A stretch of 64,000 nucleotides of DNA from an uncultured Elusimicrobia bacterium (GTDB lineage Bacteria > Elusimicrobiota > Elusimicrobia > 2-01-FULL-59-12): positions 1,120,001-1,184,000 of the forward strand of contig OY969767.1 of NCBI GenBank assembly GCA_963702895.1, given 5' to 3'. Shown here piece after piece: positions 39,601 through 45,600 of the stretch; position 1 is the stretch's first letter; the number at the start of each line of letters is the position of its first letter. The position numbers are program-made.

Positions 39601-42600
39601 TGAAGGACTTCGGTCAAATGGAATTGTCCGTTGCCGCATGTACTGGGGCACGGAATTTGGAGTGTCAAGGGCTCATCAAGATTAAACATACGTGAATCCT
39701 GTCCGAGGGGAAGGCCAGAAGGCCCTTCCATGCGGATCGCGAGTTGCAGATGGCTGATCTGTGGAAATCTCTGACTCAGCGTTTCCGCATGATCCCGTGC
39801 GAGTTCGGCTTTTTCGTGACGAACCGCGCGCAGCTCATTTTTACTGGGTCCATGGCGGGCTCGCCGCTTACGATAGGATTTTGGAGGCATTCGTGAACGG
39901 CCGGCTTAGCCGCGCATGGGCACGGGCGGCCTTTTCTTAGATTTCGGAGGCGGGAGGCAGATGCAGCCCGTAAAGCCGCAGCCGATGCAGCAATAGACTT
40001 TCTTTTCGATATGAAAACCCTTGGTGGTGGCCCATCGGGATTTTCGCAACTGGCAGTTCCGACACTTTCTCATTGGCCATTGTACCACTTTCTGACGCGC
40101 CTCGTCCGAATCAGGCCGGCCGTCACTGGCCGGAGTTTCGTGCTCCGTCGGAAGAGGAAGCCTCCCTTGAGCCAAAGATGAAGCCTCTCGGCAGAACGAT
40201 TGAGCAGGGGGCGCAAAAAGATTAGGTGTCTAACGGGGCGGTTGTCACATCGATCTGGACCGGATTGTGCGAAACTCGAGAACAAGTCCAAGGTCGCATG
40301 CGCCGCCTTAACGGGTCGACCGGTTCCAGAGACGTTCGAACTCCCGTTTGAAGCGAGGCGCCTGGTCATCGAGTACCACGAAGTTCTCATCGTTTCTTTG
40401 GGTCGCATTAGACGTCCAGTTAAAGCTCCCCGTGAGGACGTATCGGTCATCAAGAATAAGGAATTTGTGGTGCAGGATGCCTCCTTTGCTGCCCCGCTGG
40501 ATGCGTATGGGAATGCCGGCACTGCGCAAAAGATCGCTGACATCACGCTTTCCTGCGGCTTGCGTTTTGTCGTGGACGACGCGCACCTTCACGCCGCGGA
40601 GTTTCGCCTGGACCAGAGCCCTGGCGATCTTTTCATCGGTGAGGCCATAGATGGCGCCGTCAAGCGACTTTTCGGCTGAGGCAATCCAGGACGTCATGAC
40701 TTGGTCGCAGTGCCCGAGCGGACTAAAACACGTGTCAAGGGTCCTGGCTGCCAGCGGCAGAGCCACCAGGGTCAGCCCCGTGGCGAGAACCAGGCATGCG
40801 GCTCTCCTGGCTGTCCGCTTTTTCAACATCCAGAGGGCCAGGACGAGGTAAACCGCGGCCAGCGCTGCGTAGTTGGAGAGCATGAAGGTTTTGTTACCCC
40901 AGGAGGTGCCTTCATAAAACGGTGTCGGGAACGGCCAGAGGTAAGGCGTTGCAAAAAAACGGCTGGAGTGGGTCGGTATATCGCCCAGGATATGGAGGGC
41001 CCAGGCACCCAGCGGCATCAGTGACCGTAACGGAGTAACGGGGTAACGGGGTAACGGAGTCACGTCATTTTGTAATTGCTCTGACCCCGATACTCCGGTA
41101 CTCCGATACTCCGATACGGCCCAAAGTACTGCAAAGACGGCGGCCCACACCACCAAGCTGTGCGTGACATCGTAGGCATGATACACGTACGCGGGGATCG
41201 TGCTGGGGTCCGGCGGGCCGTGGCGGCCCTTCGCCCAGCGCTCACCGATATCACCCAAATGGGTCAGAAAGAAGGGGCCGAAAGATAAGAGGTCCGGTGC
41301 CACACCTGCGAGGAACGCCTGCTTCCAGCGCTTCTGGCAGAGTCCGAAGGCGGCCCCACCCCACAGTCCATGAGCTAGCGTGTCCATAGTGCCAGTATCG
41401 GAGTAACGGGGTATCGGGGTATCGGCGTAACAGCAGGTTGTGTGTAATAGAGCAACAGCGTAACAGCTGTATCGGAGTCCTGGGGTGTCCGGGCATTGTA
41501 GTGATGGGGAAACGGTGTAACGATATTGGGCAAGGGCTCAGTCCGAAGAAAAATCTGGTTTCCAGAATTTATCTGGTTGTTGGTGTGACCCCGGTACTCC
41601 GCTACTCCCATACACCGATACTAGCTTTAGCCGCCGCCGGTCCGCCGCGACATATTAAACTTCGGCACGGTGATCTGGGTATGTTTCTGACCGGATGGCT
41701 GAGCGCCCTGAGGTGGTTTGTGGGAGGTGCCGGACGGTGGGGCTTTGGCCGCCTCCGCCTTTTCCTGTTCGGCTTTTGCGGCGGCTGCTTTTTCCCCTTC
41801 CTGCCATTTCTTCTCGAGATGGTCATGGGTCACGGCGGCGTCTTTTTCTTCGTGGCACTTCTTATATTTCTTACCCGACTTGCAATGGCAAGGATCGTTT
41901 CTCCCCGGCAACTGAGCGGGTGGTGCATACGCGTCTGATTTTTTTCCGAACATCGCTTCCTCCTTGTTGTCTCCCCGGCGAAAGCCGACCCTCCACACAC
42001 CCGGCGGTCCGTCCGCCCTGCCGTGTGGCGGACGGGGTCTATCATGATGGATCCCCCGCTGACGGCCGCGGGGGATGACATCCTGGGGGTTAAAGGTTGA
42101 TTTTACGAATTTTGATGCCGGCCTCTATCAGCAGCTTTTGTGCGGGACCGGCAAGCGGATAGTCCTGATTATAGACGACCTCGATGACCCCTGCGTTGAT
42201 GATCATTTTGGTGCACAAGAGACAGGGGCAAAAGGTGGTATAGAGCGTTGATCCTTTGATCGAAATTCCATGATAGGCTGCCTGGACGATGGCGTTTTCT
42301 TCGCCATGGGAACAGTAACAATCTCCCAAGCCTTGTCCCGAGGGCCCCACGGCATTACAGCGAGGGCACCCGCCTTCAAAACAGTTCTTCGTATTGCGCG
42401 GTGTGCCGTTGTATCCGGTCGAGATGATTCGACCGTCTTTGACGATGAGCGCTGCGACCTTTCGTTTTAAACAGTTTCCGCGGCTGGCGACATGACGCGC
42501 GATATGCATGAAATAACGATCCCAGGACGGGCGCTTCACGTTCTTTAAGACCTGCTTGAGGCGCTCCGTGAGTGCCTTCTCAAGCTGCCTTAGGGTGCCA

Positions 42601-45600
42601 TTGTTCGTGATCATGGTGTCCGCCAGGCGTTCGCAGGCGTCGAGGGACTGTTTGTGGGGGTCCGTGTTACTCGCTTCTCGTTTTTCGACCGCCATAAATT
42701 CTTTCAGGGTGCGGGGGTCTTGTTCCCGGGCTCTGACTTTGATTCGTTTGAGGCGCAGGTCCGGCTTGGCGGTGATGGCCCAAAGCGCAAAGTCCGGGCG
42801 CTTACGGAAGGCTTCCACTTCCGCGGGATTGCGGAAAGAGTCAACGACATAATTCTGGCTCTCTACGAGCTTCTCCAGAATACGTTCGGCCAAAAGAGAA
42901 GGACCGTATTGTTCACGCAGTTCATTGCCGACCCGCGTCAGGTGAGCTCGTGTGGGGGTCAGGTGCTTGCGCTTGAGCTCGTCCCGCAAGACATCCGAAA
43001 GAGAGTGATAGTGAAAACCGCGCGATTGCAGGAAGCGGGCGACTTCCCCCTTTCCAGATGCGTTCTTTCCTGTCAAACCAATGATCATATGAGGTTGAGC
43101 CGGCGAGTCGGCGAGTCGGCGAGTCGGCGCAAGAACGATCCAAGCGGTCTCCCACATTCCGCCGGTTCGCCGGTTCGCCAGTTCACCGTTTCCCTTTGTC
43201 TTCGGAACGTCATTGCCGGAGCTTCGCCTCACATTTCTTTTCGAGATCGTCAATCATGCGCTGCACCATCTTATCAACATCCGCGTCGCTTAAAGTCTTT
43301 TCCTTGTTGCGGAAGAGCATGGACACGGTGAGTGATTTCTTGCCAGTCCCAATCTTTTCTCCGCTAAAGAGATCAATGAGCGCCAAGGACTCCAAGTCCT
43401 GGCCTCCGGCCACACGGAGCGTCTTGGCGATCCTCTCATAGGGGCAAGCCTCAGGAACGACCATCGAAAGATCGCGTTTGACCGGCGGAAAGGGGCTCAG
43501 CGCCTTGTATTCGATCTGCTCGGGCTCCGCTTCAAGAAGGGCCTGGACGTCCAGTTCCCCCATCACGACACGTTCATCGGTCCCGAGCGCGACGGCGAGC
43601 TCTGGATGCAGCTCGCCGAACCACCCCAGGGCGCGTGAACCTCGAAGGATTGTCGTCGAGCGCTTGGGATGGAAAAGCGGCGATCGAAGGCTGGTCCATT
43701 GGACGTTCGAAATGTGAAGCGTCGACAGCAACGACTCGATCGTCCCGGAAAGGTCAAAGAAATCGGCTGTTTTCTTCTTCCGGCGCCAATGGGCGGATTG
43801 AATCTCCCCCGCGATCACAAAAGCCAGTCTTCGCTGTTCCTGGCGTCCTTCCTGGTCATGATAAAACACACGGCCCAGCTCGAAAAACTGTGCACCGGCG
43901 TTTTGCCGCCGGAAGTTGAGGAGAACGCTTTCCAGAAGCGCAGGCAAGAGGCTTGTCCGCAGCACCGCTTGCTCTTGGGAGAGAGGATTGGCGATGGCGA
44001 TCGCTTTCGAATCGGCTTTGGTGCCGAGAGGTGGCGTAAAAGGTTGGGCTTGTTTGAGGCTTAAAAAGCTTGTATTGCAGGCTTCCAAATAGCCTAGCCC
44101 GGCGAGCCGTGTCGCCAGTTTCCGTTCAAAACTCCAGAACTTGTCGTCGGGGATAGAGGTTTGCCGGATGAGAGGGCTTTCTGTCGGGATATGCTCATAA
44201 CCATAGAGGCGCGCGATTTCCTCAAGGAGATCCGCCTCCAGCGTGAGGTCAAAACGCCAGGATGGAACACTCACATGGAGCTGGGCCGTTCCGATACTGA
44301 TCACACATCCGAGCTTCCGGAGGAGGTCCGCGGCGACCGACTCGCGGATGTCGAGGCCAAGAAACGTCTTGATGCGCGCGGTCCTGAGTTTGATGGAAAG
44401 GGGCACCGGAGGCGAAGCGGAAACATCCAGGGGTCTTGTGCCCAGGCCGCCCGCCAAGTCTTGGATGAGTTGCGCCGCGCGGCGCGAAGCGAACATCACC
44501 ATTTCATAATCGCTCCCACGCTCAAACCGGTAGGAACTCTCCGTTTTGATGCCCAGCGTTTTGGACGTGCGCCGTACGAGGGCTGGCACAAAAGCGGCGC
44601 TTTCAAGAACGATCTCGGTCGTCTCCGCGGAGACGGACGAAATCTCGCCACCGATGATCCCCGCCAGTGCCGCTGGTTTCTTCTCATCTGCGATGACGAG
44701 CATGCTCTCTTCGAGCGGTGTGTTTTTGCCTTCGAGGGTGAGGAGTGTCTCGCCGGCGGCGGCTTTGCGGACGCGGATTTGCCGTCCTTCCAGGCGCAGC
44801 GCATCGAAGACATGCAGGGGTTGGCCCAGCTCATGCATGACATAGTTGGAGATGTCGACGAGATTGTTAATGGAGCGGTAGCCGCAGCGCGTGAGGCGCC
44901 GGACCATCCATTCCGGGGATGGACCTACGCGCACGTCTCGGAAGTATCGCGCGACATACCTCGGACACAGGTCCTGGACTTCATTGATGATGCTGACGGT
45001 TGCCGTGGCAAGGTCCAATTCACGCGAGCGAGGTTCGAGGTGTTTGAGCGGCAAATTGAGACCCGCGGCCAGCTCTCGAGCGACACCCAAGACGCCTAAG
45101 GCATCACGCCGGTTCGGTGTGACTTCCAATTCGATCAGGGCGTCGTTGAGTTCGAGAAGGGGTCGTACATCCTGCCCTAGGTTGGTGTCTTCAGGGAGGA
45201 CGAGAATGCCGTCTGAAGAAGCGGCGAGACCCAGCTCCTGGGCTGAACAGATCATGCCTTGAGACTCGACACCGCGGATTTTAGCCGCGTGGAGGGTTTC
45301 GCCATCCGGGAGTATTGCGCCAACACGCGCGAAGGCAACTTTCTGCCCCGTGCGAACATTCGGCGCACCACAGACGACCGAAAACTCCGCCTGACCATCC
45401 CAGACCTTGCAGAGAGACAGACGATCGGCATGGGGGTGTTTGGCGCATTCTTTGACCAGCCCGGACACGACCCCCGAAAGCTTGCCACCAAATTTGTAAA
45501 CATTCGCAATTTCAAAGCCCAGGCGTTCCAGAGTGGCGGCCGTGTCCTCTGGCGAGATTTCCAGCGGCACAAAGTCTTTGAGCCAGTTGTAGAGGACCTT

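What a model noticed while it worked through the whole genome (the two positions that open the first line are those of the whole stretch)
42090..43088. Cytidylate kinase replaced by an unrelated P-loop NMP kinase (UPF0200/AAA_18-like) fused to dCMP deaminase
The genome has no Cmk: aroA abuts plsC-rpsA (897942/897939), where relatives have cmk. g01008 is a 180-aa NMP-kinase domain of the archaeal UPF0200 type fused to dCMP deaminase, and its occurrence mirrors Cmk loss in two phyla, so it is most likely the (d)CMP kinase.
Evidence so far: 121 Elusimicrobiota genomes: Cmk in 70; the new kinase in 50 of the 51 without Cmk and in 7 of the 70 with it. 61 Omnitrophota genomes: in 17 of 17 without Cmk and 11 of 44 with it. 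Its gene is fused or adjacent to dCMP deaminase in most of 20 loci and beside ndk in three; cmk sits between aroA and plsC in 5 of 6 Cmk loci. Model pLDDT 93; best folds SSO1041 (AMP-bound), then CoaE, adenylate and UMP/CMP kinases; P-loop invariant in 17 of 17. The genome has separate Adk, Tmk, Gmk, PyrH and CoaE. Paper searches 60, 61, 63, 64 found no assignment.
(Added by a program. Inside this text positions count along the whole contig: contig position 1,120,001 is position 1 of the stretch shown here. "Call 12" and the like, gene names such as g00115 and contig names such as C1 are that model's own, and its searches are not shown. The text may have been shortened before it was handed on; [...] marks where a part breaks off. 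The agent that wrote the report below was given it as the finding of a first reader that could run no searches.)

Follow-up and report, generated by a model that had tools for sequence, protein, structure and literature searches.

The report
Probable new cytidylate kinase family
This gene joins a DNA-precursor deaminase to an unassigned nucleotide kinase that turns up almost exactly in the bacteria lacking the standard cytidylate kinase, so it probably does that missing job, which also suggests a test for the unexplained kinase half of anti-phage dCTP deaminases.

Summary
Confirmed and strengthened. The gene (42090-43088, minus; 332 aa) is an SSO1041/UPF0200-like P-loop NMP-kinase domain fused to a zinc dCMP deaminase. 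The genome has no Cmk; aroA abuts plsC. In four phylum samples the kinase was found in 246 of 255 genomes without Cmk and in 29 of 384 with a Cmk hit. Two of those 29 are anti-phage-type deaminases, and 10 of 12 Omnitrophota exceptions examined carry an atypical Cmk-like clade. Control: in 50 kinase-bearing genomes, Tmk 48, Cmk 4. On an Acidobacteriota IF-2 tree the swap needs 10-11 changes, but only 3 contrasts are well supported (all concordant, p 0.25). Best reading (0.72): a non-orthologous (d)CMP kinase whose reverse reaction feeds dCMP to the deaminase for dUMP. No assay; substrate is inferred. The scan noted the fusion before on other DNA as a housekeeping enzyme, without the Cmk link. 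Against: archaeal relatives coexist with archaeal Cmk, SSO1041 was solved with AMP, and a Cmk-like PF13189 protein occurs in 3 of 5 Cmk-less genomes tested.

The parts
42090..43088 (-). Gene for the 332-aa kinase-dCMP deaminase fusion (P0001)
42549..43088 (-). N-terminal NMP-kinase domain (residues 1-180), SSO1041/UPF0200-like; proposed (d)CMP kinase
43050..43070 (-). P-loop G7-K13
   Evidence: G12 and K13 in 155 of 155 aligned domains from cluster representatives
42819..42842 (-). D83-S-F-R86 and E90; aligns with the DG(F/Y)PR..Q motif of adenylate kinases, i.e. the NMP phosphate- and base-binding strand (roles recalled)
   Evidence: alignment to AK1; R86 149 of 155, E90 153 of 155
42726..42755 (-). 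LID arginines R112, R115, R119, R121
   Evidence: 154 of 155, 154 of 155, 153 of 154, 135 of 155
42093..42533 (-). C-terminal zinc dCMP deaminase domain (residues 186-332), H261-x-E263 and P288-C-x-x-C292
   Evidence: PF00383 E 2.6e-24; best folds are dCMP deaminases 2hvw, 5c2o, 1vq2; motifs invariant in 18 of 18
43089..43209 (.). 121-nt spacer after pheT, holding an 8-bp tandem repeat at 43097-43128; in two same-family genomes the gene abuts pheT, leaving no room for an antitoxin RNA
   Evidence: no Rfam match
43210..45603 (-). pheT, last gene of the thrS-infC-rpmI-rplT-pheS-pheT run upstream on the same strand (context; names other than pheT read from the translations)
41627..41998 (-). Small SEC-C-motif protein downstream (context)

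Best explanation
The N-terminal domain is an active nucleoside-monophosphate kinase that does the job of the missing Cmk: ATP + (d)CMP <-> ADP + (d)CDP. Forward, it recycles CMP (from RNA turnover, phospholipid and MEP-pathway synthesis; established knowledge) to CDP for Ndk and ribonucleotide reductase. Run in reverse on dCDP, it makes dCMP next to the fused zinc deaminase, which gives dUMP for ThyX. Shown here: the fold, conserved catalytic residues, absence of Cmk, the complementary distribution and the repeated pairing with dCMP deaminase. Inferred: cytidylate as substrate, the reverse step and any channelling.
For: Kinase in Cmk-less versus Cmk-bearing genomes: own phylum 84 of 88 vs 11 of 213; Acidobacteriota 58 of 60 vs 1 of 91; Omnitrophota 40 of 41 vs 17 of 80; phylum of G338 64 of 66, Cmk 0 of 66. 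The one Acidobacteriota overlap is a true anti-phage dCTP deaminase (433 bits, cut-off 400) and G070's is defence-like (254 bits). 10 of 12 Omnitrophota overlaps examined carry an atypical Cmk-like clade. Specific to Cmk: in 50 kinase-bearing genomes Cmk is over cut-off in 4, archaeal Cmk in 0, Tmk in 48; Gmk, PyrH, CoaE, Adk each 5 of 5. The swap needs 10-11 changes on IF-2 trees; the AU test rejects one clade of Cmk genomes (p 0.022); 3 supported contrasts concordant, 0 discordant. Stand-alone copies without a deaminase within 1.5 kb also occur in Cmk-less genomes, so the kinase domain is what tracks Cmk loss. Catalytic residues conserved. Deaminase fused in 77 and adjacent in 2 of 80 loci, within 1.5 kb in 23 of 30 phylum loci, in both orders and with different deaminase subfamilies. 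G000 has ThyX and a class I/II RNR but no PF00692 dUTPase/dCTP deaminase match. ispH directly follows the gene in most of 15 of 80 loci, and follows cmk-plsC in 7 of 10 Cmk loci.
Against: No assay and no ligand-bound model. SSO1041 was solved with AMP and the best characterised sequence relatives are adenylate kinases. arCOG01045 is in nearly all archaea (PMC6650551) while archaeal Cmk passes its cut-off in 4 of the 14 control genomes, so archaeal relatives apparently coexist with a Cmk. Ten own-phylum and 17 Omnitrophota genomes have both; the atypical Omnitrophota Cmk still passes the TIGR00017 cut-off (202 bits), and only 4 of 8 Cmk-only control loci showed plsC/rpsA neighbours. PF13189, another Cmk-like family, is over cut-off in 3 of 5 Cmk-less genomes (not in G000) and was not profiled across the samples. 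Nine genomes have neither gene. Three supported contrasts give only p 0.25. The phyla were chosen because they hold the kinase. Cmk is dispensable or quasi-essential in model bacteria. The gene does not sit in the aroA-plsC slot.
Confidence: 0.72

Rival explanations
1. A broad-specificity (d)NMP kinase, like phage T4 gp1 or eukaryotic UMP/CMP kinase; covering CMP is one of several activities and merely allowed Cmk to be lost.
For: I recall a report that M. jannaschii MJ1399 is a broad NMP kinase (memory only; searches found nothing).
Against: Only Cmk is lost: Tmk 48 of 50; Gmk, PyrH, Adk 5 of 5. An invariant acidic E90 at the base-reading position would disfavour U and T (inference from recalled AK structures).
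Confidence: 0.14
2. The domain is a nucleotide-sensing or low-activity module that regulates the deaminase; CMP is recycled by Adk, PyrH or a PF13189 protein, and the mirror pattern is lineage history.
For: PF13189 in 3 of 5 Cmk-less genomes; relaxed PyrH has been proposed to cover CMP in a minimal cell (PMC6609329); few supported independent contrasts.
Against: Stand-alone copies far from any deaminase are kept in 58 of 60 genomes of family f16, none of which has a strong Cmk match; full catalytic set conserved; G000 and G325 lack PF13189; the pattern recurs in three mixed phyla.
Confidence: 0.08
3. An AvcD-type anti-phage dCTP deaminase.
For: Same architecture; hits to NF041025 (140 bits) and PADLOC dCTPase (E 4e-57); about 30% identity over 165 aa to a true member.
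Against: Far below the 400-bit cut-off; 332 aa, under the 350-aa limit used to define the defence family; follows pheT, no room for an antitoxin RNA; near-universal single copy in a whole phylum (64 of 66); true members coexist with Cmk.
Confidence: 0.03
4. A dephospho-CoA kinase or second adenylate kinase, as public annotations say.
For: JGI/UniRef names 'dephospho-CoA kinase'; CoaE folds at Z about 14.
Against: Separate CoaE and Adk in 5 of 5 genomes; TK1334 and TK2192 lack DPCK activity (PMC6650551); does not explain the Cmk mirror.
Confidence: 0.03

Closest known systems
AvcD/DcdV and anti-phage dCTP deaminases (NF041025; bioRxiv 10.1101/2021.03.31.437871 and 10.1101/2021.04.26.441389)
   Same: N-terminal P-loop kinase plus C-terminal zinc deoxycytidylate deaminase; homologous in both domains.
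   Different: 332 vs 532-583 aa; below cut-off; core-gene context; no antitoxin RNA; the kinase also occurs alone; mirrors Cmk loss, whereas defence members coexist with Cmk. The papers leave the kinase's function unknown.
Archaeal UPF0200 / arCOG01045 kinases (SSO1041, PDB 3lw7, 3h0k; PRK08356; TK1334, TK2192)
   Same: Closest solved structure (Z 22.6, 28% identity); PRK08356 matches 30 of 30 alignment members.
   Different: PRK08356 score 81 vs cut-off 189; archaeal members are near-universal and apparently coexist with archaeal Cmk; function open (PMC6650551). That TK1334/TK2192 belong with this family is inferred, not aligned here.
Bacterial cytidylate kinase Cmk (PF02224, TIGR00017) and archaeal Cmk (TIGR02173)
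   Same: NMP-kinase fold (Z 12-13.6) and, as proposed, the reaction.
   Different: No PF02224 match; TIGR02173 18 bits vs 102; 11-19% structural identity; different locus.
Adenylate kinase / eukaryotic UMP-CMP kinase family
   Same: Best characterised sequence relatives (E about 1e-6); S-x-S-D-x-x-R and D-S-x-R motifs align with STGDLLR and DGYPR.
   Different: About 15-20% identity; Glu in place of the base-reading Gln; Adk present separately.
Fungal long-form dCMP deaminase (Dcd1 type)
   Same: Eukaryotic 'Deoxycytidylate deaminase' cluster at feature score 0.92; PLK+DCD reported in Ascomycota.
   Different: No fungal sequence was aligned here; whether its N-terminal domain is active was not tested.

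Membership tests
Bacterial Cmk (PF02224/TIGR00017) | Profile match over the curated cut-off | tested here: not met
   TIGR00017 matches 2 of 30 members at best E 4e-4
Bacterial Cmk (PF02224/TIGR00017) | ATP-dependent phosphorylation of CMP and dCMP | not testable with these tools
   needs an assay
Archaeal Cmk (TIGR02173) | Profile match over 102.1 bits | tested here: not met
   18.4 bits
P-loop NMP-kinase superfamily | CORE/NMP-binding/LID fold with P-loop lysine and catalytic arginines | tested here: met
UPF0200 / arCOG01045-like kinases | SSO1041 is the nearest structure by sequence and fold | tested here: met
UPF0200 / arCOG01045-like kinases | PRK08356 equivalog cut-off (189 bits) | tested here: not met
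   78-81 bits: a sister subfamily
dCMP deaminase (PF00383) | HxE...PCxxC zinc site, profile over cut-off, dCMP deaminase fold | tested here: met
dCMP deaminase (PF00383) | Deaminates dCMP; dCTP/dTTP allostery | not testable with these tools
   needs an assay
Anti-phage dCTP deaminase (AvcD, NF041025) | Kinase plus deaminase architecture | tested here: met
Anti-phage dCTP deaminase (AvcD, NF041025) | Score over 400 bits; length over 350 aa | tested here: not met
   140 bits, 332 aa
Anti-phage dCTP deaminase (AvcD, NF041025) | Upstream antitoxin RNA and defence-island context | tested here: not met
   121-nt spacer after pheT, none in two relatives; no Rfam match; neighbours hit PADLOC only through generic SEC-C, PLD and cold-shock domains
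Dephospho-CoA kinase (TIGR00152) | Score over 65.55 bits | tested here: not met
   22-25 bits; true CoaE elsewhere
T4-type dNMP kinase (PF21448) | Score over 27.1 bits | tested here: not met
   17.9 bits for this protein; some relatives just pass
Fungal Dcd1-type long dCMP deaminase | Orthology over both domains | tested here: inconclusive
   feature-level hit only

The most novel reading that the evidence does not exclude
This is a further, widespread class of (d)CMP kinase, used by whole bacterial phyla in place of Cmk. Fused to dCMP deaminase it forms a dCDP-to-dUMP unit, and this housekeeping unit is the source of the anti-phage dCTP deaminases: their unexplained kinase domain would run in reverse to drain dCDP into dCMP for deamination, which would explain why both domains are needed and why dUMP rather than dUTP accumulates.
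Probability: 0.3. Interest if true: 0.8.

Novelty: new variant of a known kind. Interest (0 to 1): 0.62.

Why it matters
It fills a pathway hole shared by many uncultured bacteria (255 of 639 genomes in my four samples had no Cmk match) and would correct a large family now labelled 'dephospho-CoA kinase' or 'AAA family ATPase' (1,124 clusters at E below 1e-30; names). It gives a concrete substrate to test for two questions that papers leave open: the function of the arCOG01045 kinases (PMC6650551) and of the kinase domain that anti-phage dCTP deaminases need. The reaction and the two-domain architecture are both known, so this is a new enzyme family for an old reaction, not a new kind of system.

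Tried and rejected
In-place replacement: no kinase locus held cmk, aroA, plsC or rpsA (80 loci; 40 more read by eye), so displacement in the aroA-plsC slot is rejected. HI0933 link: many f16-type copies adjoin an HI0933 flavoprotein; I recall that gene beside cmk in Clostridia, but the scan gave only 8 loci, which I did not analyse; not used. Nominal Fisher tests ignore kinship and are not relied on. The tree sign test cannot reach 0.05 with 3 pairs; one IF-2 gene resolves deep branches poorly; G442 was left out (coordinates not listed), and one search used a 67-genome subsample picked from the clades, without the two genomes lacking both genes; the AU group was defined by Cmk presence but tested after I had seen the tree. 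No species tree was built for the other phyla. No RNA holder was listed. No complex prediction was obtained. Viral contigs: 2 loci, one full-length. No sigma-70 promoter match near the gene. Ten paper searches found no assignment of this family as a cytidylate kinase; the library lacks most subscription papers, and no supplements were read (bioRxiv supplements are closed; Table S4 of the DcdV preprint may list these homologues). A word search of earlier findings for the Cmk link gave nothing.
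Full report
The gene. Window 42090-43088 (minus) encodes 332 aa. Homologues of the same length start at the same Met. Residues 1-180 match AAA_18/AAA_17 and PRK08356; residues 188-306 match the zinc dCMP deaminase family, with HxE and PCxxC invariant in 18 of 18 homologues. It follows pheT on the same strand after 121 nt; in two genomes of the same family it abuts pheT. Its GC content is 54% against 57% for the genome.

The kinase domain. The model has pLDDT 94.3. 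Its nearest solved structure is SSO1041 (Z 22.6, rmsd 1.8, 165 residues), well above phosphomevalonate kinase (16.4), yeast uridylate kinase (14.7), CoaE (14.0), Cmk (13.6) and T4 dNMP kinase (13.5). By profile, adenylate kinase 1 and uridylate kinase come next (E about 1e-6), with the NMP-binding motifs in register. In 155 aligned domains drawn from the 150 best cluster representatives plus the query, K13 is in 155, R86 in 149, E90 in 153, R112 and R115 in 154 (selected by the profile, so biased towards conservation). This is what an active NMP kinase looks like; it does not name the base.

Cmk is missing here. No match over cut-off for PF02224, TIGR02173, PF13189 or TIGR01359, and no remnant by tblastn. 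The aroA stop overlaps the plsC start, then rpsA. In 10 Cmk loci of relatives cmk is before or fused to plsC in 10, after aroA in 4. Tmk, Ndk, Gmk, PyrH, CoaE and Adk are present.

Distribution. Own phylum (relatives are titled Elusimicrobiota), 301 genomes at least 85% complete: 213 have a strong Cmk match (E below 1e-15; 42 weak hits at E 4e-7 or above were counted as absent, two more genomes pass the cut-off by the tool's tally). The kinase is in 84 of the 88 others and 11 of the 213 (single-protein query). Acidobacteriota, 151 genomes: 58 of 60 and 1 of 91; without the unpublished genomes G373, G398 and G494, 56 of 58 and 1 of 90. Omnitrophota, 121 genomes: 40 of 41 and 17 of 80. Phylum of G338, 66 genomes: Cmk 0, kinase 64. 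Together 246 of 255 and 29 of 384. These phyla were chosen because they hold the kinase.

Controls. Fifty non-Elusimicrobiota genomes from the 80 loci (they overlap the samples above; at least 13 fall in the phylum of G338): Cmk over cut-off 4, archaeal Cmk 0 (G305 close, 94.8 bits), Tmk 48. IF-2 was found in 151 of 151 Acidobacteriota. So the gap is not incompleteness, and it is specific to Cmk among the kinases tested.

Exceptions. The single Acidobacteriota overlap is a 583-aa protein that passes the anti-phage dCTP deaminase cut-off; G070's 398-aa protein is defence-like. Of 17 Omnitrophota genomes with both, I fetched 12 Cmk loci: 10 hold a distinct clade with altered P-loop and NTGH motif, without plsC, rpsA or ispH nearby, but only 4 of 8 Cmk-only controls had such neighbours and the clade still passes TIGR00017. 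Ten own-phylum genomes hold both a Cmk match and an ordinary copy of the kinase. Nine genomes have neither. PF13189 is present in 3 of 5 Cmk-less genomes tested, a rival I could not profile further.

Independence. On IF-2 trees of 150 and 67 Acidobacteriota genomes each trait needs 11 and 10 changes. Holding the Cmk genomes as one clade is rejected (p-AU 0.022). On well-supported branches there are 3 concordant pairs and no discordant one (plus one pair involving a genome with neither gene), sign test p 0.25. In the own phylum, Cmk-less families occur both inside and outside the window's class beside Cmk-bearing families. Repeated swapping is likely but not shown at statistical strength.

Context. 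A dCMP deaminase is fused in 77 and adjacent in 2 of 80 loci (query built from fused or adjacent copies) and within 1.5 kb in 23 of 30 phylum loci. It occurs before or after the kinase, as N- or C-terminal fusion, and from different subfamilies. Stand-alone copies without a near deaminase occur in family f16; sources name such proteins from Endomicrobium. ndk adjoins in one family; ispH lies beside the gene in 15 of 80 loci, mostly Omnitrophota. G000 has tandem ThyX and a class I/II RNR, no PF00692 match, and only one other PF00383 gene, a 355-aa frame of RibD size; all-alpha dUTPases were not searched.

Mechanism. Most likely ATP + (d)CMP <-> ADP + (d)CDP. Forward it returns CMP to the CDP/CTP pool. 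In reverse it supplies dCMP from dCDP to the fused deaminase, the only evident source of dUMP for ThyX in this genome. The first step rests on the distribution, the second on the fusion and on pathway logic; neither was measured. Confidence 0.72; broad (d)NMP kinase 0.14; regulatory domain 0.08; defence 0.03; CoaE or Adk 0.03.

What is known. The architecture is published. 10.1101/2021.03.31.437871 (passages and the Discussion read) describes DcdV as P-loop kinase plus deaminase, calls the kinase 'of unknown function', and reports homologues in Thaumarchaeota and Ascomycota. 10.1101/2021.04.26.441389 (passages) shows both domains are needed for defence, that dCMP, dCDP and dCTP but not CMP, CDP or CTP are depleted, and defines the family as over 350 aa. 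That last result fits a deoxy-specific kinase in the defence branch and does not show CMP activity. PMC6650551 (passages) shows TK1334 and TK2192 lack dephospho-CoA kinase activity and leaves arCOG01045 open; it is in nearly all archaea, so my assignment is limited to this bacterial subfamily. PMC6609329 and PMC8565310 (passages) show Cmk is quasi-essential in syn3A and deletable in E. coli, with a 40-fold rise in CMP/CTP. PMC12697855 (one passage) did not bear. Other papers were seen only as listings. Ten searches found no cytidylate kinase assignment. Earlier notes of this scan call the fusion a housekeeping Dcd1-like enzyme and do not mention Cmk.

Verdict. Observation confirmed, interpretation supported with corrections. 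A probable non-orthologous (d)CMP kinase family: new variant of a known kind, interest 0.62.

Noticed in passing
G000 contig 897480-897510 (L368): aroA changes frame here; probably an assembly indel. It shows the assembly can break genes, which is why Cmk was also sought by tblastn.
   Followed up: partly
window 41387-41520 and 43097-43128: 8-bp-period tandem repeats on both sides of the gene pair.
   Followed up: no
window 40308-41387 (minus): One 359-aa frame joins a YdjM-like part to a PLD-like domain; in relative L018 the YdjM-like protein is a separate 172-aa gene.
   Followed up: no
window 36801-37440 (minus): Gp49-like toxin and HI1420-like antidote pair next to a DinB-type polymerase.
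   Followed up: no
G000:C1:2418142-2421384 and 1774265-1775650: RNR large subunit in a 1,614-aa frame with a long insert (intein?), and ThyX with two tandem domains.
   Followed up: no
L347-L356; Omnitrophota hits: A distinct Cmk-like clade with an altered P-loop; other Cmk-like domains lie in giant open frames of about 1,700 to 19,600 aa.
   Followed up: partly
P0241, P0210, P0122, P0132, P0231, P0208: The kinase domain fused to adenylate kinase, to Sir2, doubled, or placed after the deaminase.
   Followed up: no
L366:2941-3528: A viral contig carries a full stand-alone copy (43% identity) beside a 503-aa ORF with no NCBIfam match.
   Followed up: no
L158, L159, L169 and others: Stand-alone copies adjoin an HI0933-family flavoprotein gene.
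   Followed up: partly
L371:1784-3532 (minus): A true anti-phage dCTP deaminase in an Acidobacteriota genome that has Cmk.
   Followed up: partly
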